Assembly (NCBI GenBank): GCA_030141605.1
Contig: JAQGDQ010000436.1
Span: 133,950-197,949 of the forward strand
DNA: 64,000 nt
Reading direction: 5' to 3'
Source: Tubiluchus corallicola
Taxonomy: Eukaryota; Animalia; Priapulida
Under the pieces are notes generated by a model. The model searched no databases and had not been told where the DNA came from. It saw only the letters and a program-made list of their open reading frames with translations. The position numbers were made by a program, and so were the translations under genes. Positions 10,587-63,115 of this stretch are shown here, piece after piece. Each line of letters opens with the position of its first letter. Position 1 is the stretch's first letter.

Positions 10587-11000
10587 CTTAGGTGCAAACA
10601 AGTCAACAAGTTAAGTTGGTACGCTTGACTGACTTCGAAAGGGATATTGAAGGTAGGAGACAAAAGTTTCAACTGAGCAAGAATTAGAATGTTTATGATG
10701 AATGTCAGCCATCACTAACAATAGACAATGCTGCACCGTAACTATGACAACATGACGTAATAATGTCTCTCGGTAACTTATTAGAATTATTATATGTACA
10801 GCAAAAACATTTCTTGAATATTCGGAAAAACTAAACCTAAACTATGCTATAATTGCAAAATGTTCAGGTTTACTTTCTTAAAATAACATTCGTTCATTTT
10901 TATCAGCGGCAATGATTTCTATTGAGTTTCTTTAAAAATTGAAAGTTTGGGATCGAGATTTTGGTGTCTGGATCATAATGACTGCAATCCATAATGACGA

Positions 11001-16200: not shown

Positions 16201-19200
16201 AGCACCTGTCGAATCGCACTGACATTCTCAAGCTCATACTCACCTGTTTCTCAGAAAGCATGTACATTTGTTCAGGTAAAAAACATTAATTGTATTCGTC
16301 TATGCTTTGTGCAGCCAGGATTGCTTTTGATTAACTCACTGAATATATATTGTTTATTTCTAAGATTGCAAGTAACCTCTTTTGATTAATTTAATGTAAA
16401 AATTGTCACTATTGAAATTAAAGTATACATTTTATAGGAGTTTTAAATTAATTTAGTTTTTTTGACAAATTTTGCATTTACAAAGAAGCAAGCTTTTACT
16501 TTAAAAGAGTTTTACATAATTTTTGCTAAGATATTTAAAAATTGTCAAATTTAAAATCAATGTTAAATTTTTATCTAGATACTCAGTCACAGTCCAATAA
16601 GTGGATTCTCTACTTCACCTCTGCAGAGAATCGTCACGCGTTGCCTCTCTTCACCTCCCTTCTGAACACGGTGAGCGCGTACGATCCGATTGGCTACGGC
16701 ATTCCCTATAATCATCTCATGTTCACCGACTACGTAGAACCCCTGGTGGAGACCGCGTTACAAGTGCTTGTGGTCACGCTTGATCATGATTACTCTGGAA
16801 ATGATGAGGAGTTTTCTAATGAGGTGAGCCGGGTTGTTTTCATTAATTTGTGGCACTTCTGGTTATACTGAATTCACGCTTTTGGAGAAACATTAGTGTC
16901 AGTTATGTATTTGATGAATGGCAAAGATCAAAATTTCAAAATTTGCATTATGTTTATTATCTTATTATTATGATTTTGAATTATTGTTATTATTTTTAAT
17001 CTATTCAAGTTCATAAGAAGAAACGCCAAACTAACCCAATAAATCACTGGGTGTAGCAAGTGGTCATCAATAGTTAAATAATTACTATGCTTCATCAGGT
17101 TTCGGGGCTTAACTGGATCTCCAATCGGCTTTAGTGGAATATGCTGTTATCTGTATGGGATATGGCAATATAGTGCAACAGCCAACTAACACCTTGGTTT
17201 TTAGTGAGCTGTGTGGAAGGTCTAGTTAACTGCAAAACCTGATGAAGCATAGTAACTGTTTCTTGGCAATTAGCCTTTTCTTGGGCTGATGCATCTTCAT
17301 CTGTGTCATTTGACTTGTTGTGAGAGTTAAAATTGTAAACAATAATAATAATAATAGCTTAATAAGTAGTATAATCTTACGGGAAGGTTACATACGTAAC
17401 AAAGAGATTTTGTTCAATTATTTACATGTTGCATTTCAGAACAACGATAACCTTTTCATCAACTATCTGTCTCGGATACATCGTGAGGAAGATTTCAGGT
17501 TTATCCTGCGTGGACTCAGCCGTCTTCTGACCAACCCTCTGGTGCAGACGTATCTTCCCGGTTCCTGTAAGAAAGTGAATTTCCATCAGGAACTGCTCAT
17601 CCTTTTCTGGAAAATGTGTGATGCCAATAAGGTAAAGATCATTTATGTTAAAAATTAATTAACTTGTGGCTTCGTTTCAGTGGCTTCATTTTGTTTCGTA
17701 ACAGAGATTTCTAAAGAATTTCTTGTCCCTCTAAAATTTAAATCAGTTCTTGAGTCGTATGGGCCTAATTAGTCAATTTCTTTAATTGAAAATAACATAT
17801 CTTTATGTTTTTTATAGTTCGATATATAGTTTAACACAACTTTCGTAACACTGCAAAAATGGCTAACTTGGTTTATATCATCGAACCTAGCGCATTATCA
17901 CCATTAGCATCAATTCATTATCATTGTCATCAGCATTGATATCACCATCGTTGTCATCATCATCATCATCGTTATCAACATCTTCTTTATCGTTTTCTCG
18001 CTTCTGTTTACTTCGCTCCATTTAACATATTTTTTGTTGTTGTTGTTTATATAATTAATTTAGTCTTATCCACATTGAGCATAACTCATAAGTTAATTTT
18101 GTTTGCTGCACTCATAGCACTGTAATGCACTGTTAATTTGTAATTGTATAACTACTTGTATTTTTGTATTGTGCTAAATGGATGAATAAAGAAATCTAAA
18201 ACTAAGATCAACTTGGAAATAAAGAAAATGCACAAATGATAGATATTATAAGTCGCCTTTACAACATTTAATCAGATTATTGAACTGTAAAGAGGAAATC
18301 AAATGAAACATTTTGAGAAATTTAGTTGTTTTGTTTTAATGGTCGGTTTGCATAACTCGTGTTTGCTTTTCATGGCTGACTAGTTTTTTGATACGCATAT
18401 TTTTATGTAAATTGCTAAGTAATTTATTAATACTAAAGTAATTATTAATACTAAGTAATTATTAATGAATTAAGTGCTAACTAAATTAATATAGCTTAGT
18501 TAGTTATTGTGACTTGAATTATCCTTTTACCATTTATATATTTTGCTGTTTTTAACTGTCATATGTTGTCTTAATAAACTAAGTGACTTAATGTATCGTG
18601 ACGGAAACACATCAAGGCTTGAATGCATTCTTTACAAACATGTTAACGGTGTTGTTCATTGACCGACCAGGTTTTGCTACAGCTCAAAATTTAAAAAGTA
18701 AAGGTTTGATAATCTCAATTCTGACGTCTTATCAGGAACTTTTTTATCCCGGGGGAGTATTTTTAATTTTTGAGTAACGAAGGGATATATGCGAATTAGA
18801 TTAAAATAATTATGTAGGAAACGTTTAGTAGAATTCACCTGAGCCATAAGAAGCCAGTTTACCATACAGCCATACAGCAAAGCCTTCGTGCATGATTTTA
18901 TGTTTAACGTGGCAGAATTAGTTCCCAATTTCCATTGCATGATCAGAATTTATGCAACTATTAAGAGTATAAGAGTGTTTATCCAAAATGTCTTTACTTA
19001 GCCAATTTCCTGGGTAAGTTTGAGAGCACAAAACTGTCGGGTAGTGATGTTAAGCTCTAGGGTTTCATTGTTGTAATTTTACGAATTTTATTGTTTTTTG
19101 CAGAAGTTCCTTTTTTACGTTTTGAAAAGTTCCGATGTTCTCGAGGTTCTCGTCCCGATTCTGTACCACATCAACGACGCTCGAGCTGACCAGTGTAAGT

Positions 19201-22200
19201 AAGGTTGTTAAATCAGGTTTTGATGAACATTTTATACAGAACGAGAAATTCATCTGTGGGCGTGGTTTACTACAATGTTAATCATAGAATCCAAGCTTCT
19301 CTAATGAGGCAACTTTATGGTGGGTACACCAAATCCTACACGTGTGTGTCGTAAGAATGACATGTCATGTCACGGAAAATTTCATAAGAATGTTTTTAAA
19401 GTGTTTGCTTCATACCACGCATTGGTGCAACTAAGTTAACAATCTCCAAATGTACAATGAGACCGGTTTTTTAATCCTAGTCTAGTTCTTGACATTCGGT
19501 TTCCATGTTACTGCCTTGGTTTTGTGTTCGGCCTCACGTTAAACTAACACCCTGTGTGAATTCTTAGTATTATTTATGTTGTTCGCCTTCCGGTTTCTTT
19601 TTGTACGTTTGCGCAAAACAGATGGGGTTTGTTACAGTTACAGTTTACAGTTCACAGTTATAGTTTACAGTTACAGGTTACAGTTACAGTTTACAGTTAC
19701 AGTTCACAGTTACAGTTTACAGTTACAGTTTATTTTATTTAACATCAGTTATTAGTCTATAAAGACTGTTTTCTGCCATAAATAAAAACATTGCCTAATT
19801 AAAATACATAGAATCTCTGTAGCCAAGAGAATACTATAAGATTAAGAGAGAGATGGTTAAGAGACAGAAAAAACTAGCACCCTAAGTGGAAAAAGCATAT
19901 TTAGGTACAGTGGACTCTCGTTATAAGAATCACCTCGGGAGAAGGCAAAGTGATTCTTATAACGAGCGATTCTTATAACGAGCATGGCACAGAATTGGTT
20001 TAAAAAAATTTTATGCACATAAAAATTATTTATTTCCCGAAATTACGCTAGAAACGACATGAAACAGCATAATGTTTTTCTGGCCTAAAAAGGACCTAAA
20101 AATTCCTAGACTAATGTTTTTATTTCATGGTTGGGTAAATATTTCATGATGCCAGAATTGCCTTAAAATTTTTTTAATGCACATAATTTTTTTCCCGAAA
20201 TTGTGCTGGAGACGACAGAAAACTCTACATCTACTGCTTGAAAAATATCGATAGCTTGCTTTGCTTCATTTCTCCTCTGGTGAGGCGGTCAATTTCGGCC
20301 CCCAACCGTTTCAATTGAAGGTTGTCCTCGAAGACTCGTGCCACCTTCTCGCTGGCCAACCCTCGGAAGCGCGTCATAAGCGGCGATGATTTTCACCTTT
20401 TCACTCACACTTCTGCTTTTCCGTTTGGATGCCATTTTTCAACTGACTGACACGCAAACAAACAAATTTGAAATCTCTGACAATGGAGTTGGCGCCAAAA
20501 TTGCTTCTACTATCGAAAGAAGGGTGATTCTTATACGAGCGGATTTTCACTAGGAAAATGCCGATTCAATTCGGGAAACGCGATTTTGATTCTTATATCG
20601 AGCTGATTCTTATACGTGTGATTCTTGTAACGAGAGTCCACTGTAATTAAAAATACATAATACATATATAATAGAATACAAATATAATATGAAATATAAT
20701 ATAATAACTGCATACATAATATGACATATAATTACAGAAAGAAATTGACTATAAGTACAAGGATCTTAAATGAAACATATTTACTTGATCAAAGTACTTA
20801 TTTTCACATTCCTATAATTATCAGAAATTTCATATAGAAGACACAAGATTAAATTTATAAAACGTACGAAGTTTAAAATTAAAGCTATTTGCAATTAAGT
20901 TTTTACAATAAAATATACACAATGATAAAATATGGGATTTGAATGCGGTATCTAAATGAGGTTGTGGTGAGTTTGATTCTCTCCTGGGGCACAATATCGG
21001 CAGTGACAGATTATACCGTCCCATTTGTTTATTAGACTTACAAAAGATGTTAAGTTGGGGGCATCACGATAGGTATTCATCGGGTAGGTTATTCCATAAT
21101 TTGGCTCCTGTGTAGCGGAAAGAATTTAGACCGTAGTTAGTGGTTCTGCAATGTGCGATAACAAGTTCTAGGTTATCAGATCCTTCTGATGCTTGAAAAA
21201 GATCATTAGGGTCAGAACATTTATTTTATATATATATAATTTATTTTGCATACCTATGTAGCTGTTTCCCTTAACCTACATAAAGCGAGGTTTGGGCATT
21301 TGACTGACTATAATAAGCCGTCATAATCTGCTTCGAAATCATTAAGAACAAATGGATATCTCTTTTTTGTATTTTTTCAAGCGTCATAGTGTTCGTTTCA
21401 CCTGTTGAATGGCCTTAAACATTGTGGGTTTTGGTTTTAGCTTTGACTATCTCATTTTTTTATTTTCTGTTGTTTTTTCTGGTCTCTGACACGTTTCTGA
21501 ATATTGCAGTAGGGTGTGTTGACCGGCTCTCTTTTGCTGCTGCATAGACGACTATGTGCAAATTTTATTCGAAGCATTGAATCTTGACACTTTAGTTCAT
21601 TTTCTATTTAGTGATGCTGTTATTTGTTAGTTACAGCATGCATTGCCCTAATGTAATAGCTGATTAGGTTTTTATCGCTAATGTTATTCACTTGTTAAAA
21701 ATATCTGTAGTACCATGCTATCATTTCCTGTCATTCAGTTGTCCACTACGTTTACATAGGTGTCCAGTGGCAGCTCGTGTATAGGTACTGTGGAACTGCA
21801 GCACCCCCTATTTTCACTCAATATTATCGATAATATTCAATATAATAAGTATTTTTGTTTAATTCTTTCTTTATACTTGTACGGAACCAAAGCACGTGAG
21901 GGTAGTACTGTTTGCTTCACAACCCAGCCCAGTGTTGTGTTTGGCTGTTGTGTGCATTCGGCCATGCACACATGTCTGAGATAACATGCTGTACGCTGCA
22001 CTGTTAGCATCTGCTGTTAGGCAGAGAAAGTACTGTTTCTCACACAGTTTGTTGTCAGTTCTCACATGCTCAAAAACCGTGTACCGGCATATTCTTGAAC
22101 TGTGGCAATTTAGGCTATTCGTAAGCAAGAAAGTTTGTTGTTTAGAATTTTATGAAGTTTATGTATAAATTTTCGTATGTCTGTTTGTTTAAAATTACAA

Positions 22201-25200
22201 TTACAAATTACAACCTTAAAATTACATTGTTTGTTTCGTTTTACACAGTACTAAAAATTTTCTGAAGCAGCAACCCCAGTAATTTTAACTACAGGCTGCT
22301 ACTGGAGGAGTCATACTTGCATTCTGTTGATGTATGAAGGTTCTTGTTGTATTTCAGCTCGTGTTGGACTCATGCATATTGGAGTGTTCATTTTGTTGTT
22401 ACTCAGCGGGGAACGGAACTTTGGTGTTCGATTGAACAAGCCGTATACAGTGAGAGTGCCAATGGACATACCCATGTTCACTGGAACGCATGCTGATCTT
22501 CTTATCATTGTACGTACACGAGTGTTACAAATTACTGAGGAGGCCTGTAAAGTACATTCTTTTATGAAATTGCTTCAAAAAATGTGTAAAACCATCAGCA
22601 ATCTTCAAAACCAGTGAAAAATTTGTGCAGACATTTTTGAGAGCAAACGGGCAAAAAATATTTAAATGTCAGCGAAGGTTGTGCAAAAACTTTTTAAGCT
22701 TAACTTGAGGATTAAATTAAAATTATAATCAAGAATGCGCAAACATTCCACATAGGAGAGTGTTATTTGCTGTGCTTTTCCTGGTTAATGATTCCAACAA
22801 ATTAGTAGAGATGTTGATATTGTGTGTCTTCAAAGGCTGAGCTGCTCAATCTAATCAGTAATATAGCAACAAAGTGTATGTTCTGTATAAGCTGCTGATC
22901 AACAGTTCGCCAGTATGAAACTTGAAACTACACAGTCACCATTCTCCCTTCGTAGGTCCATTCTTCTTTCAAAACAGATATAGAACTGTTCGCTATAATC
23001 CTTGCGGAACGCCATGTGAAGTATTTTTGTAAGCTCACTTTCTAATAATTTTTTTGAAAAAAATCTCATGGTTTGGGTCAAGAAAGAGCTGATCATTGAC
23101 CACAAAATCTAAGTATGCACATTGCACACACACAGTTAAGTGGACAATTCTGGGCTGGATCTTAGTCACGTTCCTGTTCATTTGAACAAATTATGTAAAT
23201 ATTGGGCCAAAGATACTTGAAATTTCTTTTCTATCCTTTCTACCTTCCTGTTATTCCCACTTTTGGTCCTAATTTGAAAAATATATCATCTATAAAAGGT
23301 CGTTAAATTGAGACCACTCATTCGATGTGTGAGTAATCCATGTAGACATTGGAACTTTCATTTATATACATTATATGCATGTAAATTACATTATATGTGT
23401 ATAACAGTATGCCAGCACTGCCTGACATTTCAAAACTTTTTTCATTGTGTAGTTTATCTAAACTATTTTGTTTTTCGGAAACGTATCCAAAAAATGTTCA
23501 GCCGAGGTTTCTATACTGAGTAGTAATGCGTTTATATATAATTTTAATAATATACGTTTTGTCTTCTTGTAGGTATTCCACAAGATTATCACTACAGGTC
23601 ACACTCGTCTTCAACCTTTGTTCGATTGCCTGCTTACAATTATTGTCAACAGTAAGTACTAAGTTGACAACGTGCATGATTGAATTGTTGGTGTCAATAT
23701 GAAAATGTTTCAAGTCAAGAATGTGTCATACTGCAACAAATTCAGGGCTTGTGGAAGAATGAATTTTAAAAAGTGAAGTACACAAAGAAATGCTAAGGAA
23801 AATTCAGTTTGACTAATCGTAATAACAGTTTATTGGTTATTGCAATCAACTTAAAGCAATGTAATGCTGTTGTGATAATTGTTCATGTTCTATCGTGGTT
23901 GAGTAGTCTGTATAGATGATATTATGTGGTTTGATTCATTAATACCAGTTTAGTACAAAGGTGACAATATAGAGGGTGCAAAAGTTTCAAACTCATGCGT
24001 GCGTCAAAATTGAAATTCTGTCAGTCCAATCAAAAAGTTTTGCTCAAATGAACTTCTGCAAGACTGTCTAGACTTTCAGGTTTGCGAGTCAGTGAACTTG
24101 CATAGAAGCATTCCTGTCTTTGTGCAGAGTTCAGGTACTAATCGTTTACAACTTTTAACATATAGAGCTTTGCTGGCTGTGTTACCGTAGCGGCTGATGG
24201 AAAGTGCAGTGTGTGCTATTCCCAAGTCAAATCACAATCATTTTTACGTTACTTTGCAGTTTCACCGTATCTGAAGACTCTTTCAATGGTCGCCAGCACC
24301 AAGTTGCTCCACCTATTAGAGGCTTTCAGTACTCCGTGGTTTCTCTTTTCCAGTCCGACGAATCACCACTTGGTGTTCTTCTTGTTGGAGGTGTTCAACA
24401 ACATCATACAGTATCAGTTCGACGGTAAGTAGTACATTCACGATAGGTGTTGTGTTAGTCACCTTCACTCCTGAGTTCATTGGTCATGGATACAAGTCAT
24501 GTGGTTTCAAATACTTTGTTTCCTATGTGTTACTCATTGTTTGTGTACTATTGTTTCCTATGTGTTACTCATTGTTTGTGTACTATTGTTTCCTATGTGT
24601 TACTCATTGTTTATGTACTATTGTTTCCTGTGTGTTGCTCATTGTTTGTGTACTATTGTTTCCTATGTGTTACTCATTGTTTGTATGTTATGTCTTGTAT
24701 CTATATTATTTAACTGTAAGGTGTTAAATAGACACCTGTGCTAATGTTGTTCGTTGACTGAGCAAGATAAATAAATGTTAAGTGTTTTTAGCTTGTAAGT
24801 TTGATTATATAGTGTTTTGTTCTTCGAGAAACTGATTCTGTCATTGCATAATGGTAGAATGTACTCATAATGGTAGAAGGTACGCGTTGAATAATTCAAT
24901 TTTTGTGACAAAATTGGTCAGTAGAAGAGAAACATGAAAAAACGTGACTGAAGTTGAATTTGAACCTAGGACCTTTGGATTACAAGTGCATGCTTTTACT
25001 AACAATTGTTGATCAAATCTCCTGTGGACCTTAAATACGTTTTCTTTATCAGGTAATTCCAATCTGGTGTACACAATCATTCGCAAACGAAATGTTTTTC
25101 ATCAGTTGGCTAACCTGCCAACGGATGGTGTCACGATCGCCAAGACGCTGGCAAAGAAGGGCAAGCGGACATCGTCACAAGTCAGTGCCGATAAAAGTAC

Positions 25201-28200
25201 GGAAGAGGTGGAGGGAAGGATGGAAGGAGCAATTCCAGCAAAAGAAGCTGAGCCTGGCACGCTGAATGCTTCATTATGTGCAACACCTGGTACTTGGTTT
25301 TAATTGTTTTTTATTGTTCCTGATAGAGAAATGCACAAAGATTTCTGGCCACTCTTAAGAAGTTGTTTGTATTTTTGTGTTTGTCCCTCCCTAAAGCTTT
25401 TGCGAGTTTCTTTCGCTGTTACGCTGAGTGATGTAGTCAGTTACAAAGTCAGAAGACATGGATTTATGCTGAATATTTGTCCAATGGTCTTTTTTCTTTC
25501 AGTTTGATATCTTTATTTTTCATCTTCTGGTTTGTCTTGCAAGTTGCAGAGAAAGTGGAGATACTTTTAATTGCACTCACTAATATTATTCATAAATGGT
25601 AGCTGAGTTGTAGGAAAGCCTGATAAGCTTTCGTAAAGGTTAAATTTTGCTAGGCGTAATTTAAAGTCAGTCATGTGATGATTTAATTACGTACTCGTAA
25701 AGGCAGTTGCAATAAAGAGAATTGATCTTATGTTATTCAACTTGTTTGAAGAGTGGTGATTTGAAGTTATGCTCTGGTTGCATGACTTACGGCACATCAA
25801 GCTAGTAAGTTTTCTTTCAGACAGCAAACTCACAAGCTTTGCAAGTTTTTGTTGGCAGACTATTGCAAATTCTCAGTCAGTTCCTGCAAGTTGATATCTT
25901 GCTAGTTACTGTCTAGTGTGGATGTCTTGGCGAGTTACTGTTGACACTTCTCTCGCAGTGAATAGAGAAGTGAGTGTCAGCTATAGTGGAGTCACTCGCA
26001 GTAAGTTTTGCTCTCTAGTCTGAACACGCTTGCAAGTTACTGTCTAGTGTGGATGCCTTGGCGAGTTACTCTCGACAGTTCTCGTGCAGTGAATAGAGAA
26101 GTGAGTGTCAGCTGTAGTGGAGTCACTCGCAGTAAGTTTTGCTCTCTAGTCTGAACACGCTTGCAAGTTACTTAGCGAATTTACATGGCCAGAAAACTCA
26201 CTAGTCTGAACGTGCCATTAGAGTCTGAATTGGGGTTAGAGTTAGAGTTAGGCTTAACTCCATAAGGTTCAAGTGTAAAATATGATGATTTCCCTCGGTA
26301 GTTCTGCTTTAGTTGCTAAGTTCTGCTAAGTTCTGCATTGTTAGTGTAAATGTTATAGTTAGTTTGGGTTTGGATTAAAGATAGATTTAGTGCTTACTGT
26401 TTCATTAATGTACTGTCTGAAAACACACTATAAGCACAGCAGGTAATAGTGCGAGAAACATTAGCTGTGTTCAATATTTGCGGTTTGATTTGCCGTGCTG
26501 ATTTAATCTGTTGTGGAAGCAGCATCCAAACATGGCTAAAATACTTCTGCTGGTTCAGTGGCTCAACTTAGAGGGTGATTTTTGATAGTAGTCTAGGTTC
26601 CTGTTTTGCCACAAGCATCAGCATTGAGTAGGCCATGCCTTTGAATGCATATGAATGCAGCATTCTAGATTGCAGTGTGTAAAATTGTATAAAGAAGTAC
26701 ACAAATAACAGTAAAATAAGATTTCTGCTATTGACATTGTAGCTATTGGTAAGATGACAGAAGAGTCTCGACCATCCACATCGATGCCGACGTTAAAGGA
26801 AATAGCTGAAGATTCTCGCTCCGCAGCGGAAACCGTGCAACCTGCCGGGGAGAATGTGGTTGATGTGGGAGCAGGCGGCGATGCTCGTGCCACAGAAGGC
26901 ACAGAGTCTGCCCCGGAAGAGGAACAGGAAGAGAAGAAGCGAGGTCAACTGGAGAAGAGTCACAGTCTGGTAGGTTTGTTGTAGTGTTGCATGATATGTT
27001 CTTTGTTACTTGTGTTTTTCGCAAGACAGCTACAAATGTACGTTATTATTGTATATACATTATACATATGTGTATGTCTAGCTGGCTTGTGAAAATGCTC
27101 TGATGACGATACTGCATTGAAACGTAAGCAGTAAAGAGATGCCATGTTGTTATCAACAATAGTCGTTGTTTTGATTTGATTATTGAGATTATTGAAACGA
27201 ATAAGTTGCCGTGTTAATGTATGCTGTTAGATTTGTGTATGTGTTTCTTAATGACTTTAATTCACATGTTTGTTTACTGTTGTAAGAAATCCTTGCACTT
27301 TACAGATGGTCCACTGAAGCCGGTAGTTAAATATTCTGTTTAACATGTAGTAGCATGTGATTTTTATGTATAAACTTCTCCGCTTGAAACAACCCTTTCA
27401 TCGTCACCGTGGATGTTTTGTCTCCGACATGTTTCATGGACATCGTTTTCTTGCAGCCAACACCCCCTGTCAGTCCGACTCAGTCATTGCATTCCACGAA
27501 ATCAGAGAAACTGAAGATGAGTCGATCAGAAAACATTGCGCTGAATTCACAAGCTTGGACACCGACTCCGGAGTGGGTGAGTACTGTTTTTGTCACACCT
27601 AGTGCTATGGTGGGACCGTCTGAAAAATTAAATTGCCATTTTATTTTTTGCAAAATTCTTGAAATTTGTTTTGGTTTGTGATATGATATTTTTACTTTAT
27701 TTATGTTAGTGATCCTTGCTCATTCCTCAATGGCTGTTTGCACAAGTATTTGTTGTTATTTACAGTGTTAATTGCTTATAAAGTTAATAAGTATTTTATT
27801 TATGAATGAAAGGAAAAATCTAGAATTATTGAAGTTTTTAAATCAAACTTTACTGTAAGAAATAGTCTAGTTTTGAATTCGTTCTTTGGTAAATAATCTT
27901 TAAATTATTGCTGTCATAGAGTTACTCCATGAATGTGGAATTTAGAACGTCATTTACCATTGCTATAGAATCCATTTGGTTGTAAAAATTTACACTACGG
28001 AGTAACTCTATCATGACGTGATGATATAAAAACAAACAGTCTGTTTATAGAGTTACATCGCAAATGACGAACCCAAAAATGAATTCAATTGGTTGTTGAT
28101 TACTCTAGCACACGTAAACTAGCATTTGGAAATGCTTGATTGGTCGTTGAGCTATAAAGCTTGAACAAAGATCTGTCATCATCATCATCATCATCACCAA

Positions 28201-30993
28201 GGGGGTTGTGTTGTCTAATGGTCATAGTGTTGGCCTTGTAAACAAAGATCCCCGGCTATGATCATATTCAGTCTCGAGCTTCGACTTTTCACATTTCCTA
28301 CTTTTCAGTTAAATTCGGTTTTCAAATTTGAATAATTGTGGTTCAGATTCTTTCGTGTATGTTGTTTGTTTGAAAAAATTGCACTCTGCTAAAATTATTG
28401 ATTTTTTGTACGCTGACACTTGCAGGTGATATCCTGGAAGCAGAAGTTACCCCTGCAGACGATAATGAGAATGTTGCAAGTTTTAGTGCCACAAGTTGAG
28501 AAGATTTGCATTGATAAGTGAGTTTAATTTCTGCATTTAAGCAAATTAATAGTGGTGTTCTTTGTGTTTTTTACATATCACCCTAAGTAAGGCCAGAGAC
28601 CAGTTTAAGTAGGGGCTACTGTAGAAAAGGGAAGGCATGAGTGCGTGTCCTGAGAAATGGAATCCTTTAATTTACTAGCAATGAGAAGTATCTACTAATG
28701 TTCTTCATGTTATAGTTAACAGCTTCCTGATAAAGAATTCCACACATAAGCAGCTCAAGTGAAGAAAATGGATTTATTAGCAGCTGTTTTCCATCTCGAA
28801 GTGTCCAGGGCAAGAATATAAGAAGCAGCACTAAAACGAGTTCACTACACCTTGCAAAACTGTTCGTCATTCCGCAATGTTACAAGACTTGTTTGAGTCT
28901 GACTGGTTGTGGTCGTTGTTGCGCAATTTCCTGTTGTGTGGTTCCTAATTAGTTCCATATGTAGGATATTTATGAAAATATACTAGAAATTTTGATAATT
29001 GCTAATTAGTAAATAAGTTCTTATAGTTAAAACAAATTATTCGATAAAACATTTATGCTACGTTATAATGTTCACTGGAAAATTAAATTTGCTCTTACGC
29101 CTGGTTTACGCTGAGACATTTGACATCGGACAAAATCGATTTTTTGAGGGCTAAATGTCTAGAGAAAATGCAAAAAGTTTCTGATTTTGTCCATTATGAC
29201 GAACTGAAACAGCAAACGAGGAATTGTGAAATTGCAACTCTGACTGTAGAATGTTTGATTGTACAGGGGATTGACAGATGAAAGCGAGATATTGAAATTT
29301 CTACAACACGGCACTCTAGTCGGACTGCTTCCTGTACCACATCCGATACTAATCCGGAAGTACCAAGCTAACCAGGGAACCAGCATGTGGTTCCGTACAT
29401 ACATGTGGGGAGTCATCTACCTGCGGTGAGTTGTTTCCACATAGAGATTAGTGAGGTTGTAAAAAAAGTTGTTTTTTAATGCATGTGTCACATACGGAAC
29501 GCCAACAGTGTTGTGAGTATAATAACACGATTTGATAACACAATCGACTGTCCTAGCAGCTGTCTTCAGCCATTTTGACGTAAAAATAACAAAATGGAGT
29601 GGAGCGAATGCTTACAAAGCACATAAGTAAACAAACTGACAAAAAGTTACACAGTGAATCCAAAGATGAAAAATACCCACCGTGAACGATGATGATCAAA
29701 TAGCAATCACAGAGCAATAAATAGTCAGAAAATCACCTATGACTTACAAAACAAGAATGTGCTAGAAACAGGAATTTTCCTACTCGACAAGATGTATTGG
29801 GAATGACCAGGAACTGGTACCTTATTAATGATACCGCTCTAAGACTGTAAGATGAGCCACTGTACCATCAGAGGTGTCCTGGCCATGCTTGGGTATATGT
29901 TTACTGGATGAAACAGAAAAAATGTGCCGTAGTTTAGAGTGCAAAATGATTAGAAGCAAGCATTTTGCATTAACATTTCAAAGCGTGACACTACAATACA
30001 TTAACTTTTGGCTGTGGAAGTTAACACTTCATACTTTTAGGAGTTTTTAAGTTACGGCTGAAAAACTTCTGCACGTTAAAAAATTAAACGTTTGAACAGT
30101 AGCTAATCATTAATTGAAAAATGGCCATATTTCACCGTCGACATGCTTAAAACATTCAGTAGTCAATACATGACAACTGAACAACACAAAAATCAACCAG
30201 CTTGCATCTTGGTCATCACCAGAGAAAACAAAGTACTGGTAAAAATTTGTTGTCAAAAGAAAATGGAATTTAATCCTACAAACTAGGGATTGCTGGAATT
30301 CCTAACAACAGCTGAAAAGAGTTGTTTGATGTGAAGGACCCAAGGCAAAAATTATTGAGTAGTGGAACCAAGTACCACTTAAAGAAGTGAGAAACTGTGT
30401 AAACTGTTAGAAGAAACGCCGTGAAAATGCACTTGCTAGTTTGCTTTGGGGGACACGTAGAGCGTTTGCGGTAAATTTTAGCAGTAGCCATCCATGAAAA
30501 TTACTCCTGCATTTTACTCTTTTGACTTGTTGTTTTAAGACTTCTGTATCTGTGGAAAAATCCAAAGAATGACTTAAAATTTTTTGGAGTTTACACACAA
30601 GCGTCTGTAACGCCACTGTGATAATTTTCAAGAGTTTCCATTATTTTCTTCCTGTATTATCATGATCTTGGCACATTTTTTTGGACATCTCGTATATCGT
30701 ACCTGTATGAGACAAACACTAAAATGATCAGAATCAGTATGTTGAATGAAACCACTCAGAGAGAGTAATGAACCTGCTTACATAGAGCACAAGTGCTTAC
30801 CGCTTGGTCATGAACACATTTTAATTTTTTTATACATTTAGTTTAACTTTTTTCGTTAGTTTATTTTGCTGTCTAGGGTCGTCTAAAATCAATGGTATTT
30901 CATGCCATTCGTTTCATTTGTGTTTATAGGAATGTAGACCCACCGATATGGTATGACACAGACGTGAAATTATTCGAGATTCAGCGAATCTAA
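13278..30993 (+). CDS. HID1: HID1 (dymeclin/HID1 family Golgi protein), complete, 18 coding exons, about 825 aa
   Basis: Exons 13278-13343, 14172-14385, 15001-15116, 15463-15501, 15772-15825, 16110-16275, 16579-16823, 17440-17631, 19104-19194, 22358-22509, 23573-23651, 24260-24424, 25053-25289, 26743-26969, 27457-27576, 28426-28517, 29267-29425, 30930-30993. All are GT-AG with continuous phase (2478 nt). Starts MGNTDTKLNFRKAVIQL (myristoylation-type MG), contains LLLSGERNFGVRLN and IIQYQFDGNSNL, ends PPIWYDTDVKLFEIQRI*. Confidence 0.97.
14437..14882. mobile_element. Tc1/mariner (pogo/Tigger-like) MITE
   Basis: TA|cagtaagtccttgcttaacga...tcgttaagcgaagacttgctg|TA, imperfect TIRs with TA flanks. 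Confidence 0.75.
19630..19730. repeat. (GTTACA/GTTTACA)n microsatellite
   Basis: Directly visible 6-7-bp repeats. Confidence 0.85.
19908..20643 (-). mobile_element. pogo/Tigger-like internally deleted DNA transposon
   Basis: TA|cagtggactctcgttataagaatcac...gtgattcttgtaacgagagtccactg|TA. A minus-strand remnant from 20435, MASKRKSRSVSEKVKIIAAY, resembles the pipsqueak-type N-terminus of pogo transposases. Confidence 0.85.
20700..21200 (-). mobile_element. CR1/L2-group LINE 3' fragment
   Basis: Minus frame near 21085-21155 reads HCRTTNYGLNSFRYTGAKLWNNLP. Boundaries approximate. Confidence 0.65.
21765..22304. mobile_element. hAT-like MITE (degenerate)
   Basis: Ends cagtggcagc...gctgctactg; 8-bp flanks taggtgtc and gaggagtc (6/8 match). 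Confidence 0.55.
24516..24685. repeat. 35-bp minisatellite, about 5 copies
   Basis: Unit ttgtttcctatgtgttactcattgtttgtgtacta. Confidence 0.9.
24888..25005 (-). mobile_element. tRNA-derived SINE-like remnant
   Basis: Minus strand ...cttgtaatccaaaggtcctaggttcaaattc (B-box-like). A similar degenerate copy lies on + at about 28200-28335. Confidence 0.4.
25903..26172. repeat. Tandem duplication of about 128 bp
   Basis: agttactgtctagtgtggatg...gtctgaacacgcttgca occurs twice in tandem. Confidence 0.85.
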
Positions 30994-33900
30994 ATATAAG
31001 ACTTGATTTTTTCCACACCTTTCATCTTTGCATTCCTTAACAATGGTACGCTAGTGACATCTGCCAAATAGAAGCCTAACAAACTTTCAGTTTGTATCTT
31101 GGTCGAGAGAGCATCTCTTTAAGTTTTCATTGCTGCATTGCAATATTTGAATCAGTGTTTATATGTCGTGAATGATGTTTTGACTTGATTTTAGCAAACT
31201 CTTCGAAATCACAAGGCATTGTGGCCAGATTCCTGAGTATTACAGGGACATTTAATGAAGAAATTATTCATTTAGCCCAGTATCATTACGCAACTAATTA
31301 AAGTGGAACAAATGTGCACTAAAACGTTTTTAAATGACAATTTTCAATTTTTTACTTTCCTCGTTTTAGAGTTTTTTGTGTCCTCTTCAAAGATCCTCAT
31401 GTTCTAAAAACTGTATGTCATCCTGCATGTAGGGGCATTTTAACCAATAGGCTAACTAGGCTACTGCCTAGGGTGCCAAAGCTTGAGGGTGTCACATTTT
31501 AGAAAAAAATCTGATTATCCTCGGAAAATGTGTATACTTTCATATTCATGTAAAGTGCACATCTTATAACTCACCACAGGCAGTTACTGAGGGCAGCTTT
31601 TATATAAGTGCCACGTAACGGACAGGTGCAAGGTATTACACAACAAGTAGTTGCGCAACCTGCTTGAATATAAACCCTATGAAAATACATGTAATTAATA
31701 ATAACCGTGTGTAAACTACGTTGATAGTGTTTCTAATACACCACAAGTAATTGTTTGATCTGATCTTTATATAAACGACCATAAATTAACAATAGAGATG
31801 GATTGGACAGAACGATTATTCTAGGGCGTCGTAAAGTCCCTGCCTGCAAATGCTGATAATAATGCAGCACATGCATTAAAGTGTTTAACTAAGAAACAAC
31901 TTTCTACGAGTTAAAGTAATAGTCATTAACGACAAGTATTAAGCCTGACTTGCTCAGTAATACGATATTTTCTAAATCGCTTTTGATTTATGAGCTAGAT
32001 TTTCTTCATACATGTAAACTGGCATCTTAAAAGTAAGTCCTGTTTAATTTACGTGACTTGTGTCAGGACCACAATGTAGCTGTTTATCAAGTACAATCCT
32101 CTGACATGAGACGCTAAACCTGTAGAGAATATTCTAGATGCACATATATATTTGAAGACCTTCTCTTTAAATGAGAACACTAGAGGCAGTATGATAAGCC
32201 TGTCGAGAAGAAATTTTTCTTATAGTCACCTATTCATTTTTTGTCCAGGGCTAGCATTATTTAACTTTACCGTCAAACATTATGATCTCTCAGCATACCT
32301 ATTGAATTTAGGCTTATTTTGGCTAATACTAATCAATCTTAAAACTTCAGTGTGACCTGATTGGCTCAATTTTTTGGCTGCACAATTTAATCATTCATAG
32401 ACAATTATATTAATTATACCTATTTCTCTATCCTACTAATCACATTCATGTTCCGCAAAAATGATTCAGAAAAATTGAAGCCGTATTTACTGTTATGCAC
32501 TCTCTCTATTAAAATTTTAAAATGACATTAAAATAAGTTTTCTTTGTTAGCTAGTATGGATGTGTTCCCTGGTAGTTACAAATATGCTGTACATTTTCCA
32601 GTTAGTAAACAGTATTGTCATTGTTTTGTAAAATTTTGTTGATACCTCCTTGTCTGTTACTCTCTGTCCAGTTGAATTTTTGTTTATATTCGTATTATAC
32701 AGCTGCTTGAAGAAAATAAGGTGTTAAAATCACATGAAATATCATACTTTTAACAAGCGATTTTTCCTATATAGTACTTTTCAAACTGTAGTGAACTAAA
32801 TGTGAATGTAAGTTGAGTGGATTTCAGCGGTTTTTGTAGATAATAGTTTTCTGACGCATTCCAGTAACTGTAGACATAATATACGGGGAAGGGGAATAGT
32901 AAAGGAATAATTTCATGTAATTTTACAGGTTCGTCCAGCAAAAATGTTCCCTCAAATTAGCTCATAATCCTACATTTTGGTAGAGGTGTGTAGAAGAGAT
33001 CGACATCAACTCGTAGCCCGGTTTCTCCTCTTTTTCCAATGAACTGTAAATTTCGGCTTTAAAGAAAAACAGCTATTTTTCAAGCATCTGCCACTCCCAG
33101 GATAGCGGGACTAGAAGTTATTTTGTGGGAATGTTTTTTTAGACGACCCTGCATATGTGGCACATGTATAATGGACAAACAGTCAGTTTTTGTTTTGCCA
33201 ATTACAGGACATAGATGTCTCAGATACCTCGTAATAAATACTTTTTACCACATGCCTGTAACACTCAAATTTTGAATAATTATTATCAATACATGTATGT
33301 GCTTTCAAATTGTCCCCATTGTGGAATGAATTATTTATTATCCTAATTTTAAGATTATTGATTATTAGAATAAACACAGAATTATTGAATTTTTGAAACC
33401 TTTCCTATACTTCCGTTAAGTTTAGTTTCAAAAAATCAATAATTGCGGTTCGTTTGTTCTTATCTTTAAAACTGTCTTAGCGTTATTTTTTTGAAGTTAT
33501 AGAACTTGATTTCCTGGCACAATAAGTGCAAGCGATTTTGTTTTATTATGGAATTATCAGTATCTTCAGTTTGATCAAACGTTTTCCTTATGTGGTCAAA
33601 TCAAATTATGCAAAACCTCCTTACAATTTGTGCTGTGCCATTTTGAATGAATTCTTTCTTTTTTTTGATATTTAATGCACAACACTATGTATTATACATA
33701 TTGTAGTTGTATAAATGTATTATATATACAGTAAATATTGTATTTATTTATTTGAATGTATTTTTAAAGAATATCTTAAAGAAAGACAGCATTGTGTATA
33801 CATTGATGTATAGGTTGTTGTTTCGTGTAATAGACGTAAGCATTGGATAAACTAGTTCGATTGTTTATGTGATATTTCTGGACAAAAAGTACGCAAAAGT

Positions 33901-34519
33901 GTTTGCTGCTGATTACGCCATCATTCAGAGGGTATAATTTGTGTAGTAATGACTGCAAATTCTGTATTGCGTAGTCTTTTTTGAATCCTGATGTTTAGAA
34001 GGTAAAAGCTAAGTTGCTTCATCTAAGCATATCTAGAAGACAATTACTTCTGTTAGTTCAATAACTGATTCTAGGGGCTTTGAAGTTGTGGTATTGATCT
34101 CAGGAACTAATTTTGCTTTGTTAAATTCATGGTGTATTCACCCTCAGATCACTTTGCACTGGTGAGTAGGGATAAAAAATATCCAATACTGTGACTCCAA
34201 TATTGGCCACATGCTGTGGTTCGTGGTCATCTTGTGCCCATAGATGTTACTGAGTTACTGGTTTTTCTACTCACGTATAACCAGTAATTAGGGAAGCCCT
34301 GTAGATTCAAGGGTTGTAATGAGGTGAATACCTGTAAGTTTAATTGCAAGTGTTAGCAAGTCATGTGACACAGCGGCCAGGCAGTGCAGACATTTGAGTT
34401 TGTGGCCAGTGATGGAGTGACAAACAGTTTGTGTTTCATTGATGTAGTCTCGTTTGCGAGCGTACCTGATTGCATACACCTGAGGTAAAGAGTCACACTT
34501 CTTGCCTGTCATCTAAACA

Positions 34520-37500
34520 ATGCCAAATCGTGCACCAATGAAAAGTGGTAAGTTGTTATGATTATTTTTTCATTGCTGAAATTTTTTACGTATCAATTTG
34601 AAAATGCCTACAAAAAGATAACTAAATAAAAGTTATGATGTGAAACATGCATGTATCATCGCAGTCAGGAAGCAGAAGAAAGGACTTTGTTAGGTGCCTG
34701 ATGCACAGTGGAATTCCAAATAGTCAAAGAAAAATGATTAAAAAGCAATGGATTATTGGACAATTTAAAAAAAGAAATCAGTATAGCAAACTGGGATAGA
34801 AATGATGGGTAACAGAATGTTTAAGAAAGGAAGTTTGGGAAAATTCTACTTAATGAGTTAAGAGTTTACATCAGTATGTGACAACACAACTGTTTAATGT
34901 TAATCACATTGTCCATTGTATTGATACTTTGTCGTTAATCATCCAGTTGCAGACAAACCACTCAAATCACACGTTTCTCCTAGTCCTTTAATTGCTTACG
35001 TATCCTGCTAGCCTATGGTCTGCCATTTTTTAGATATTTTGTATAGTGAGTTGTTAACAATATTAGTTGTTTGGCACAAATTTTGTTGTAAAATTGAATT
35101 GTTGTCAATTTTTAGAGGTCTTCGCATCCAGCTCGAATCTTTCAACATAATAAGTAGATTTTTCTCAAATGTTACACAAAGGTCCTTGCACAAGTACAAC
35201 AGTTTATACAATTTTTTGCTAAAGAACTAGGCTTCGTGTAATATATGCTCATAACAGATTCAAATAGGTGTAATAATAGGGCTATTCTATTGCTTTAGGT
35301 ACTTATCAACTCAATCAGCTTGGTAGAAGGTTCAAAAACGGAAGACCATTACCGACGGAGCTGCGTCGCGAGATTATTGCCATGTTCCTGCGTGGCGTGA
35401 AACCTTGCGTAATAAGCCGTCATCTCCGAGTATCACATGGTTGTGTGAGCAAGATACTTAGCAAGCACCAGGTATGTTCCATTAGACTGCGCGGAAAAGC
35501 ATTCAGAAATTGGCAATTATGAAATTACTGATGCATAGGTCACTGCATTTGCAAAAGGACAATGTGAGAGAGTCTCACTTGCAAAATATGAATTCCTCAA
35601 ATTTGGGCGTCATTTGTCCCGGCTTGTACTTGGATAGTGATATTCTATATTGACCAGGGGACGGTTTCGCAAAGCCGTCACTAAGTTAACGATGTCGTTA
35701 TTACATTCAATTCACTATTAATAATGATGTCGTTAAGTCAGTGACGGCTTTGTGAAACTGGACCCAGGGTATCTTTATTGAAATGAACCCTTACTTTGTC
35801 GGGGGTTGCGTTCTCTAAACTTAACTTTTGTTCCATTATATGCATGTTTGTTCAGATAAACTTCTTCAAGAATTATTATGATCCTTTTTTAGTTTAGAGA
35901 CTTACTTCCAGGAAAGCCTAATAAGCAACTCCTGCTTCGTATGAAATGAATATTAGTAAAAATATGTGAGCGCATTAAAACAATGGGAGAAGTAGTATAA
36001 TGCTTTTGATGTATTGTGTTAATTTAGTTTGACTGTGACTGTGAGAAAATATTTTTTTTTGCTTAAAGTTACAAATGTTGTTGAGAAATGAATACGGGCT
36101 ACATAATTCTTACACTTTTTTATTGTAGGAGTGTAGTAGCAGTAATCAGTCGCTGGTTAACAGTGATGATTGCGTTACAACCCTGGCATCATCCACAGAA
36201 AGTGGCAATCTCGTTGGGTCAGTGACTGGAACTTATCAAGGTTTCCTTTCTGCTTCTGTTATAAAGCAGAACTTTATACTTGATTATCACTCTTTATGAT
36301 TTTGTGCATAATTCTGAGTGACACATGTTCTGCTGTAGTCTGAAGCTTAGCCTCACATCAGTGCAGTTTCGTTTGACCTGGGTGCTCTGTTGACTTTTAA
36401 AATTTCGCTGAACAGCTATATGATTTTATTTTAAAATGCCCTATTTTTCAAAATCTTAGCTTAACTGTCATATTACAAAATTGTTACGTTTGATTCAGTT
36501 TTGTAAAGTTTTATCAAATTGACGCATTGCGAGTCGTTATGGGTGTAACTATAGTTAAGCGTGTGTGCTATAACTTCTAGTATGTGTCTGTACGGCATTT
36601 TATCGCTTTCTACATAGCTAATAGACACCTCATTTATGCCATCTGTAGGTGTAAATCACATATTGCGCAACAGAGAAAAACTTTTTTTGGAAAACAAACA
36701 TAGACGAAAACGACTATCATTCACATTGCAACAGCTGAGCAGTTTAGAAGCAGCATTCAAACAAACGCCGTATCCGGACATCGCTATAAGAGAAGCACTT
36801 TCTCAACACCTGAATCTTACCGATACGAGAGTTCAGGTATTATGGTATAATTAGCAGTAAATTACTACTGCAGTTTAGCATGTGGTGTTATAATCCTGTT
36901 GCAAGCTGTCTGTTGAAAGCATGATCTAGCTTTCTCGTACAGTTGACAGAATTAGTTCCCAAAATTCACAAGTTAGTAAGCTAGAAGCAATTTCACGAAT
37001 TTTGTTCTTGAGCCAATGTATAAAGCTAAGTTTCTGAGACAGTCAGTTTGTCAACAGATAAACAAATATTGGTTACAACATTAGATCAATTGCTGTTGTC
37101 TATCTGTGTACTAATTAGAGGTAGTAATGCTTAACTTTGGCAGTTTGGTTCTGAGATATACCACTTGCACGGTGTATACAAGTGGTTTTTTTAGAAATGG
37201 AGAGTGCATTGTGCAGACTGAATATCATTTCTTTTTATGGACAAGCTGAAGACTGAAGGGGGGTTACAGTTGTTGGGAGGTTTAGAAAGTTAGACTGCAT
37301 ATCAAATTTTAAGCGCATGCCTGAATTCCACGAGTGTATTTCAATAAAGTTAAGACATTTATTTTTAGATCTGGTTTAGTAATAGGAGAGCAAAGTGGCG
37401 AAAGCAAATGAGAGTGACATCTGTTATGGGAATGGAAAATTACACAGGAACCTCTGATTCTCCTCTCATAGCAGGTATGCTGAAATCAGTGCTTTTATAA
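34520..37500 (+). CDS. Divergent Pax3/7-like transcription factor: PAI subdomain plus S50 paired-type homeodomain, RED subdomain absent (about 204-210 aa)
   Basis: Exons: 34520-34547 ([10 protein letters not shown], donor GTAAGT); 35299-35471 ([57 protein letters not shown]); 36129-36240 (Ser/Thr-rich linker); 36649-36836 ([46 protein letters not shown]); 37369-37474 ([13 protein letters not shown]...). All phases join and the VQ|IWF intron is at the PRD-class position. The end is uncertain: read-through to TAA at 37500, or a splice from 37474. Confidence 0.88.
35655..35765. mobile_element. Hairpin MITE, about 110 bp
   Basis: Inverted arms gtttcgcaaagccgtcact...agtgacggctttgtgaaac. The same arms bound 57781-59190. 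Confidence 0.75.
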
Positions 37501-37662
37501 AGTTACTATAACTTAAACCGAAATTTGGTATTAATTGACAGTTTAAAGCTTGTTATTATGAGATGTCATGAAAGTAGTGCTAATATAGTTCTGTTTTTAT
37601 GCTTTTGTACATGTAGCACTCTTACAGTGTTAATTTAGTGTCTAAAGCTTTTCTCTAATGGA

Positions 37663-37812
37663 TAATAATAATAATCTTTATTTAAAGTCGGCTTTTGGGT
37701 CAACAATTAACATTAGCTCAAAGAGCTATTATCGCCGACACTATATAACAATCTACAACTACATAACAGAGACTATTATTACCCCACTTTTACCCTAAAT
37801 ACCATGCAAGGC
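37663..37812 (-). mobile_element. 5'-truncated copy of the SINE at 49372-49693
   Basis: Reverse complement of about 49485-49635, including the (ATT)n tail. Confidence 0.8.
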
Positions 37813-37814
37813 AA

Positions 37815-38652
37815 TTAACGTTATTAGCATATTTATGTACAACACCAGGGATGAGAATTTTCCGCGGATACGCGGAATTCTGAGTTTTTGGAAGACCAGT
37901 AGTGCCATTTTTGTAAATTGCGTAAATTCGTTGAGAAAATTTTTTATGGACCCGGTACATTATTTCACAAGTTGACCGCTAGGTTGCAGGCCGTCACTTT
38001 GTTTACATCACGTACATCAGTGTAACCACGTGTATATCTCTATGTATAAAAATATAGAATCAATTGTGCGGAGTTATTTGAGTCAATTACAGACAGTTTT
38101 TATATACTTTTGCATAGGGGAGCGGCCAGTACTTAGACATTTTTGAGACAATTAGGTATCATGTATCCTTGATAGTTGAGTATTTTAAATTATGCATGAA
38201 ACAAGGTAATTGATATTTTAAGTCCACTTAGAGGTTCTCTATGGTCACAAAATTGCAATTTGTTGCTGCCTACGCAGCCTCCAAATGCCTGTTTCAGAGT
38301 TTTTTGCAATTTGTCATTCTCATCCCTGCAACACTGAAACATGGGGTTTAACGACTTTACTCAATAAGGACAGATTGCCGCATTTCATAGAAGTTTTCTA
38401 TGGAAAGTTTGAAAGACAAGATGACCATATGTAGTCAAAAATAAAGATTTGTTCACTAGAACGAAAGAGTTCAAAAGTCAAGCACTGAAGATTAAGAGGG
38501 CTAGGTAAGATCAACTTTAACCATATTTAGCTTTAGGAGTGGAAGAACTTGTGCTGTTTGCTGCAGATAGGTGCAGTGCTGTAATGAATGTTATAGCCTT
38601 GATGTCTGCAGTAAGTGAGACTTTCAAGAAGAAGAAGAAGAAGAAGAAGAAG
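37815..38652 (+). mobile_element. RTE-like LINE remnant with (AAG)n tail, interrupted by a MITE
   Basis: VISIFMYNT|ETWGL is split by the MITE at 37846-38328. The sequence is similar to 1140-1570 and ends in about nine AAG repeats. Confidence 0.7.
37846..38328 (+). mobile_element. MITE with CAGGGATGAGAAT TIRs, copy 1
   Basis: TIR cagggatgagaat...attctcatccctg; flanks caacac and caacac. Confidence 0.9.
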
Positions 38653-38815
38653 AGTATTGTAATATATATTACAATATGTAATATAGAAAGATATACCATA
38701 CCGTTGAACCCTATGATTTCAAAATGATTCTTCAATTTAATGATAATGAAAAAATATCAAATAAATGATAAGAGCAGAATAATTAGATAACTTTATTTGG
38801 TTTGTTTCTATACAG

Positions 38816-63115
<24,300 letters not shown>

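What the first reader, a model, noticed from the sequence alone, without database searches (positions are those of the whole stretch)
34520..37500. Pax3/7-like gene with half a paired domain: PAI plus S50 homeodomain, no RED subdomain
Seen: exon 35299-35471, which the ORF track misses, encodes a clear PAI subdomain with the Pax3/7-type [17 protein letters not shown]. It splices in phase to an unrelated Ser/Thr-rich 37-aa exon and then to a homeodomain with WFSNRR. I found no ETGSIxPG linker, RED helices or octapeptide between 35472 and 36648. Known: S50 marks Pax homeodomains; Eyegone-type proteins lack an intact PAI but keep RED; nematode NPAX proteins are PAI-only. Inference: PAI plus homeodomain without RED is an unusual architecture, possibly a lineage-specific Pax subfamily. 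The intact frame and splice sites suggest it is functional.
Basis: partly seen in the sequence, partly recalled or inferred. Interest (0 to 1): 0.85.

Follow-up and report, generated by a model that had tools for sequence, protein, structure and literature searches.

The report
Pax gene with a fossil RED
An invertebrate Pax gene, likely a Pax3/7 duplicate, keeps the first half of its paired DNA-binding domain and its homeodomain but has only broken remnants of the second half, so it likely binds DNA with two domains instead of three, a layout that also appears in database entries from several unrelated animals.

Summary
Exon 35299-35471 is a PAI subdomain (Pfam PAX positions 4-64 of 125), the homeodomain has S50, and no intact RED is encoded in any frame of the window. 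RED is not absent without trace. Its last turn and helix survive at 36624-36674, the best of 127,864 positions scanned and above 500 of 500 shuffles. The 'unrelated' middle exon likely holds a frameshifted trace of the preceding RED part (amino-acid test p 0.003-0.008 uncorrected; DNA-level test not significant). RED therefore likely decayed in place while PAI and homeodomain kept 49 of 53 conserved columns, which points to a functional, fast-evolving gene. Pax3/7 origin is favoured, but Pax6 is not rejected (AU p 0.18). The layout is not unique: 18 of 135 PAI+homeodomain proteins from a targeted search have too little room for RED (bdelloid rotifers, a chiton, Trichinella, an unnamed 13-row clade). 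It is absent from the passages of the Pax reviews I read. Splicing is unshown, and the proposed donor at 36240 scores poorly. The scan's index showed no earlier finding of this. Verdict: new variant of a known kind, moderate interest.

The parts
34520..34547 (+). Predicted first coding exon (ATG, 9 codons + 1 base); start codon not verified
   Evidence: GT donor and frame fit
35299..35471 (+). PAI subdomain exon; keeps 29 of 31 conserved columns; Arg at paired-domain position 10 where 119 of 119 comparison proteins have Gly
   Evidence: Pfam PAX 4-64/125; AlphaFold pLDDT 88.9, three helices; Foldseek 1pdn TM 0.84
35654..35768 (.). High-copy inverted-repeat element (MITE-like) in intron 2
   Evidence: 50-nt arms, 80% complementary; depth about 200 times the flanks
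36129..36240 (+). Predicted middle exon: strong acceptor, weak donor; 3' end uncertain
   Evidence: Acceptor 8.8 (99th percentile), donor -3.3 (13th percentile); 3 of 4 allelic changes are synonymous in this frame
36173..36229 (+). Likely out-of-frame remnant of the RED loop and middle helix, inside the middle exon
   Evidence: Predefined profile p 0.0035-0.0075, post-hoc wider profile p 0.0005-0.0025; DNA-level alignment not significant
36624..36674 (+). In-frame remnant of the last RED turn (DTSFMPSV) and helix (GVNHILRNR), one residue short; the turn part is coding only if the acceptor at 36618 or 36625 is used
   Evidence: Rank 1 of 127,864 positions; 0 of 500 shuffles
36649..36836 (+). 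Exon with RED helix remnant, 8-residue spacer and homeodomain residues 1-46 (alternative acceptors at 36618 and 36625)
   Evidence: Pfam Homeodomain E 9.3e-14; acceptor scores 4.7, 5.1, 1.6
37369..37500 (+). Exon with homeodomain residues 47-60 (WFSNRR, S50) and a short tail; either spliced on at 37474 or read to the stop at 37498-37500
   Evidence: no convincing next exon found

Best explanation
This is a Pax gene, likely a fast-evolving Pax3/7 duplicate, whose RED subdomain likely decayed in place and which is predicted to make a transcription factor that binds DNA through PAI plus an S50 homeodomain. Shown: an intact PAI, an intact homeodomain, no intact RED, and an in-frame remnant of the last RED turn and helix. 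Inferred history: deletions, and probably two compensating frame changes, destroyed the linker and the first two RED helices, and a further deletion removed the octapeptide and the acidic pre-homeodomain extension, while the frame from PAI to homeodomain stayed open. Inferred function: it would bind composite PAI-plus-homeodomain sites, as RED-deleted Drosophila Paired does, without the octapeptide that recruits Groucho co-repressors, and perhaps with shifted PAI specificity from three basic substitutions at paired-domain positions 10, 11 and 13.
For: PAI keeps 29 of 31 and the homeodomain 20 of 22 columns conserved in at least 90% of 119 proteins, despite an end branch of 0.75-0.99 changes per site and a RED decayed past HMM detection. 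This contrast implies selection on PAI and homeodomain after RED was lost. Remnant statistics. Against run X2, 6 of 9 coding changes are synonymous, pN/pS 0.15, binomial p 0.006-0.014. Run X5, a diverged holder from another study, covers the PAI exon with 26 substitutions and no gap over 35265-35483. Drosophila Paired is the best solved match for PAI and the best single-domain match for the homeodomain. Profile scores favour Pax3/7 over Pax6: PAI 99.7 vs 64.2, homeodomain 113.4 vs 96.4. The 30-row tree puts it on the Pax3/7 side, 99/97. RED-deleted Paired rescues embryonic patterning and viability, and PAI and homeodomain are needed in one molecule (PMC4345280, introduction and section 3.1 read).
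Against: No splice junction is shown. The donor at 36240 is weak. The nonsynonymous density (3 of 459 sites, 0.65%) is close to the non-coding density in the same contigs (18 of 2,300, 0.8%), so the low pN/pS may reflect high synonymous variation; only 9 changes from one comparison, and X1 and X2 are on record as one sample. The DNA-level test of the middle exon gave 27-56 of 300 shuffles and 10-64 of 300 genomic windows at or above the observed score. Grouping with Pax6 is not rejected (AU p 0.176), and the 122-row tree leaves it unresolved next to another long branch. The helix remnant scores higher against Pax6 and other families (10.4, 14.8) than against Pax3/7 (4.2). Gly10 to Arg breaks an invariant PAI position.
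Confidence: 0.62

Rival explanations
1. A Pax3/7 duplicate under relaxed selection or already a pseudogene; the open frame is a by-product of choosing among several possible splice sites.
For: Long branch; Gly10 to Arg and losses of linker, octapeptide and pre-homeodomain extension; weak donor and several frame-compatible models; nonsynonymous density close to non-coding density.
Against: 49 of 53 conserved columns kept while RED decayed heavily; no stop or frameshift in PAI or homeodomain exons; synonymous excess; gap-free PAI exon in diverged run X5.
Confidence: 0.15
2. The protein is made but acts mainly as a competitor of a canonical Pax3/7: it would occupy sites or pair through the homeodomain, with a weakened PAI and little or no activation domain.
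For: Only about 28 residues follow the homeodomain if the last exon reads to its stop, and no further exon was found; substitutions in the PAI hairpin region; no octapeptide.
Against: A usable donor at 37474 (score 4.3, 89th percentile) allows a longer C-terminus; a canonical Pax3/7 in this genome is not shown. This differs from the best explanation in output, not in origin.
Confidence: 0.13
3. The gene derives from another paired-plus-homeodomain family (Pax4/6 or Eyegone) and resembles Pax3/7 through divergence.
For: AU test does not reject Pax6; the helix remnant has Asn where most Pax3/7 rows have Ser and scores better against other families; no Eyegone reference was in my trees; the Pax3/7 extension is absent.
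Against: PCVIS and SHG motifs as in Paired, unlike PCDIS and SNG in Pax6 (alignments); both domains score higher against Pax3/7; the turn remnant scores 10.8 against Pax3/7 and 1.9 against Pax6.
Confidence: 0.07
4. An assembly artefact: an intact RED exon exists but is missing from this window.
For: The DNA runs are short contigs and no single record spans the gene; the lists of joints and loose ends were cut.
Against: Contigs of X1 and X2 tile the introns with few differences and the loose ends shown lie at repeats; RED remnants already sit in the expected order and strand.
Confidence: 0.03

Closest known systems
Pax3/7/Paired/Gooseberry family (Drosophila Paired, PDB 1pdn and 1fjl; Owenia fusiformis PAX3/7, P0206)
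   Same: PAI with PCVIS and SHG motifs, full S50 homeodomain; best solved match for PAI and best single-domain match for the homeodomain; about 61-64% identity to the nearest rows.
   Different: No intact linker or RED, no octapeptide, no 18-residue pre-homeodomain extension (score -12.2 against a training minimum of 20.8); Arg at invariant Gly10.
Engineered Paired lacking RED (prd-Prd delta PBC; PMC4345280, abstract, introduction and section 3.1 read)
   Same: PAI and homeodomain in one protein without RED; rescues segmentation, viability and male fertility.
   Different: An artificial deletion of residues 75-125; here the loss is natural, includes the linker, and leaves remnants.
RED-less Pax3/7-like database proteins: Didymodactylos carnosus P0223, Adineta ricciae P0174, Liolophura sinensis P0248, Trichinella papuae P0264, Daktulosphaira vitifoliae P0242, and an unnamed 13-row clade including P0006 and P0147
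   Same: PAI followed by an S50 homeodomain with no RED hit.
   Different: All 18 short-gap proteins keep the TGS start of the linker and none keeps the last RED helix (joint score at most 11.5). They do not group with the window gene. The named ones are gene models I could not check for missed exons.
Eyegone and nematode NPAX (PMC4901127 and PMC4448998, passages read)
   Same: Pax proteins that lost one paired subdomain.
   Different: Eyegone degrades PAI and keeps RED and homeodomain; NPAX keeps PAI without a homeodomain. The passages list no PAI-plus-homeodomain form.

Membership tests
Pax (PRD class) | PAI subdomain | tested here: met
   Pfam PAX 4-64, E 8e-21; predicted fold matches 1pdn, TM 0.84
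Pax (PRD class) | Complete 128-residue paired domain with linker and RED | tested here: not met
   RED HMM best 1.7 bits window-wide; remnants only
Pax (PRD class) | Paired-type homeodomain with Ser50 | tested here: met
Pax3/7 | PAI and homeodomain closest to Pax3/7 | tested here: met
   most family labels rest on recalled motifs, with P0206 and P0212 named
Pax3/7 | Phylogenetic placement in the Pax3/7 clade | tested here: inconclusive
   99/97 in a 30-row tree with long branches left out, AU against Pax6 p 0.176; unresolved in the 122-row tree
Pax3/7 | Octapeptide between paired domain and homeodomain | tested here: not met
   No pattern match in three forward frames; only 8 residues lie between the helix remnant and the homeodomain
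Pax3/7 | 18-residue N-terminal extension of the homeodomain (10.1101/701656, section 9 and passages read) | tested here: not met
   Score -12.2 against training median 35.2, minimum 20.8, 41 proteins; the paper says nematode orthologues also lack it
Pax3/7 | A canonical Pax3/7 paralogue elsewhere in the genome | not testable with these tools
   No genome held; only one PAI locus in the 64-kb window
Pax4/6 | SNG motif in the PAI recognition helix | tested here: not met
   Window has SHG; the Pax6 chain has SNG
Eyegone | Degenerate PAI with intact RED | tested here: not met
   The opposite pattern; no Eyegone sequence was available for a tree
NPAX | PAI without a homeodomain | tested here: inconclusive
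   A homeodomain lies in frame downstream, but the join is not shown by RNA; read-through of the PAI exon stops after 16 more codons

The most novel reading that the evidence does not exclude
PAI-plus-homeodomain without RED is a recurrent, unrecognised fate of Pax3/7 duplicates, the mirror image of Eyegone, reached independently in rotifers, a chiton, nematodes, an unnamed clade and this animal. This gene is a caught intermediate in which the RED exon was recoded by compensating frame changes into a new linker under selection, while basic hairpin substitutions gave PAI a new DNA specificity.
Probability: 0.3. Interest if true: 0.68.

Novelty: new variant of a known kind. Interest (0 to 1): 0.45.

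Why it matters
RED is deeply conserved yet dispensable for most Paired functions in flies (PMC4345280). Natural RED-less PAI-plus-homeodomain genes show which duplicates can lose it, and they offer ready-made proteins for testing what RED, the linker and the octapeptide add to DNA recognition. The remnants here record how the loss likely happened. The impact is on Pax evolution and annotation; it is not a new kind of system.

Tried and rejected
No whole genome is held, so paralogues and synteny were not tested. No RNA holder was listed; run X6, a guessed RNA run, was laid and touched only repeats; this says nothing on expression. Run X5 has no cover over the middle exon; it is a low-depth run and this was not used. 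The individual X5 differences were mostly not printed, so dN/dS against it could not be computed. Orthologue searches: the PAI exon gave 17 hits among 22 candidates, best 71% identity; the homeodomain exon gave none among 45 candidates; both are weak negatives. A possible intronic remnant of the middle RED helix at 36576 was rejected (338 of 127,942 positions score as well). Linker and first-helix remnants in the middle exon were not significant (p 0.30-0.79). A weak match of the 7 residues before the homeodomain to Pax3/7 did not hold over 18 residues. A single-sequence fold of 36618-36836 was low in confidence (pLDDT 63.9) and is not used. A transposase origin of the PAI was rejected: Tc3 matches at 26% identity, E 0.13, against 60% and E 1e-5 for Paired. 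The Atlas look-ups gave no names for the host or the unnamed clade. Host identity: a quick HID1 tree groups the window with insects and one unnamed row (SH-aLRT 93), outside the sampled lophotrochozoans; no priapulid was in the set. Nine paper searches on Pax subdomain loss listed no description of a natural PAI-plus-homeodomain protein that I could see in titles, abstract starts or the passages read; a search for the human counterpart of the Gly10 change found none. Most subscription papers are not in the library, and bioRxiv supplements (such as those of 10.1101/2023.07.18.549157 on larvacean Pax37 duplicates) and the alignment supplement of PMC4901127 were not seen and may show such proteins.

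Full report
Observation. The five predicted exons (34520-34547, 35299-35471, 36129-36240, 36649-36836, 37369 onward) have GT-AG ends and join in frame. Of 131 six-frame segments of 22 residues or more in 34400-38790, one hits Pfam PAX, at profile positions 4-64 of 125 (E 8e-21), and two carry the homeodomain halves. The PAI exon folds into three helices (pLDDT 88.9 with a 32-row alignment) and matches the Paired structure 1pdn (TM 0.84). A RED HMM built from 68 full-length Pax proteins finds nothing above 1.7 bits in six frames of the 64-kb window, and four sub-HMMs find nothing either. No intact RED is encoded. DNA contigs of runs X1 and X2 tile the introns with few differences, so a dropped exon is unlikely, though no single record spans the gene.

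RED left remnants. Ungapped profiles are more sensitive to short pieces. The nine residues at the start of exon 4 match the last RED helix: 5 of 73,768 other nine-mers score higher, and p is 0.0036 in shuffled linkers. The eight residues just upstream, in frame, match the preceding turn. Together they rank first of 127,864 positions (21.0 bits, next 14.9; best of 83,898 positions in HID1 proteins 13.4), and none of 500 shuffles of 35472-36700 reaches that score. In the middle exon, a shifted frame resembles the RED loop and middle helix: p 0.0035-0.0075 for a predefined profile (one of four tried) and 0.0005-0.0025 for a wider one chosen after seeing the match. A DNA-level global alignment of that exon was not significant (27-56 of 300 shuffles), and linker and first-helix profiles found nothing. 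I treat the last-helix remnant as shown and the frameshifted remnant as likely.

Gene model. A splice-site matrix from 14 introns (12 of the neighbouring HID1 gene, 2 of this gene) scores the donor at 35471 and the acceptor at 36129 at the 99th percentile, but the donor at 36240 at the 13th. Acceptors at 36618 (phase 0) and 36649 (phase 1) score alike. A CTAAT sits 27-31 bases before 36649 (branch-point consensus recalled). Four models keep PAI and homeodomain in frame, including one that skips the middle exon. All lack a working RED. The 3' end is open: splice at 37474 or stop at 37498-37500.

Function. PAI keeps 29 of 31 and the homeodomain 20 of 22 strongly conserved columns on a branch of 0.75-0.99 changes per site, while RED between them is wrecked. 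This is the main argument for selection. Against run X2, 6 of 9 coding changes are synonymous (pN/pS 0.15, p 0.006-0.014). However, replacement density (3 of 459 sites) is close to non-coding density (18 of 2,300), so this support is weak. Run X5, about 12% diverged here, covers the PAI exon without a gap. One invariant glycine (paired position 10, Gly in 119 of 119) is Arg, with basic residues also at 11 and 13; the effect is unknown.

Family. Paired is the best solved match for PAI and the best single-domain match for the homeodomain (DUX4 ranks higher only by summing two domains). Profiles favour Pax3/7 over Pax6. A 30-row tree, chosen from 122 rows with most long branches left out, gives 99/97 for the Pax3/7 side but does not reject Pax6 (AU p 0.176). 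The 122-row tree is unresolved. Eyegone, Pax2/5/8 and Pox-neuro were not sampled. The octapeptide and the Pax3/7 pre-homeodomain extension are absent. It is best called Pax3/7-derived rather than a full member.

How unusual. A profile search of 1.84 billion representatives, built to favour RED-less proteins, together gave 167 proteins after dropping two cluster mates. Of these, 135 have PAI and homeodomain, 31 lack a RED hit and 18 have under 69 residues between the domains. This is no frequency estimate, and some of the 31 look like exon-skipping gene models. Of 10 RED-less proteins looked up, five are named: two bdelloid rotifers, the chiton Liolophura, grape phylloxera and Trichinella papuae. 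The chiton protein has the accession next to a canonical Pax3/7 and groups with it, which suggests a tandem duplicate. Thirteen unnamed rows form a RED-less clade (SH-aLRT 95). I suspect larvaceans, whose Pax37 genes are expanded and divergent (10.1101/2023.07.18.549157, section 2.1 and passages read), but did not test it. The window gene is not close to any of them and differs in losing the linker while keeping the last helix.

Literature. PMC4901127 (passages) lists Eyegone, NPAX and Pax10 as domain-loss forms and no PAI-plus-homeodomain form. PMC4448998 (passages) describes NPAX. PMC12486386 (passages) notes a butterfly Gooseberry isoform lacking the last two RED helices. PMC4488758 (passages) links the octapeptide to Groucho co-repressors. 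PMC4345280 (abstract, introduction, section 3.1) shows that RED-less Paired rescues most functions. PMC5333810 and 10.1101/481135 (passages) added nothing on this. My searches are listed under Tried and rejected; the library lacks most subscription papers.

Host. The neighbours are a DEAD-box helicase, an LRR-like gene, HID1 and a REJ-domain gene. A quick HID1 tree puts the animal with insects, outside the sampled lophotrochozoans. Other notes on this genome suggest a priapulid; I could not test that.

Verdict. A real Pax gene with intact PAI and S50 homeodomain and a RED that likely decayed in place; probably functional (about 0.75 counting the competitor reading); splicing and expression unshown. 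New variant of a known kind; interest 0.45.

Noticed in passing
window 38817-45129: Exons of a REJ-domain (polycystin-1-like) gene begin at profile position 209 of 452, 1.3 kb after the Pax gene on the same strand. No earlier REJ exon was found in 30990-38790. Its 5' part is short-exoned, diverged or missing, or lies further upstream with the Pax gene in an intron.
   Followed up: partly
window 35654-35768: High-copy inverted-repeat element with 50-nt arms in intron 2 of the Pax gene, also present in the diverged run X5.
   Followed up: partly
window 13278-30990: HID1 gene, at least 14 exons, 75-78% identical to invertebrate HID1 proteins; used for host placement and splice-site training.
   Followed up: yes
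window 9879-10610 (minus strand): 244-codon open frame with a signal-peptide-like start and a weak LRR_8 hit (E 0.006), between the helicase and HID1 genes.
   Followed up: no
proteins P0006, P0141, P0146-P0149, P0151, P0153, P0155, P0191, P0192, P0224, P0226: An unnamed clade of 13 Pax3/7-like proteins with only 30-66 residues between PAI and homeodomain, several from multi-member clusters; probably a real RED-less subfamily worth naming.
   Followed up: partly
   Followed up: partly
window 36271-36406: A stretch of intron 3 aligns in the diverged run X5 (23 substitutions, 1 gap in 137 bases); possibly a conserved non-coding element.
   Followed up: no
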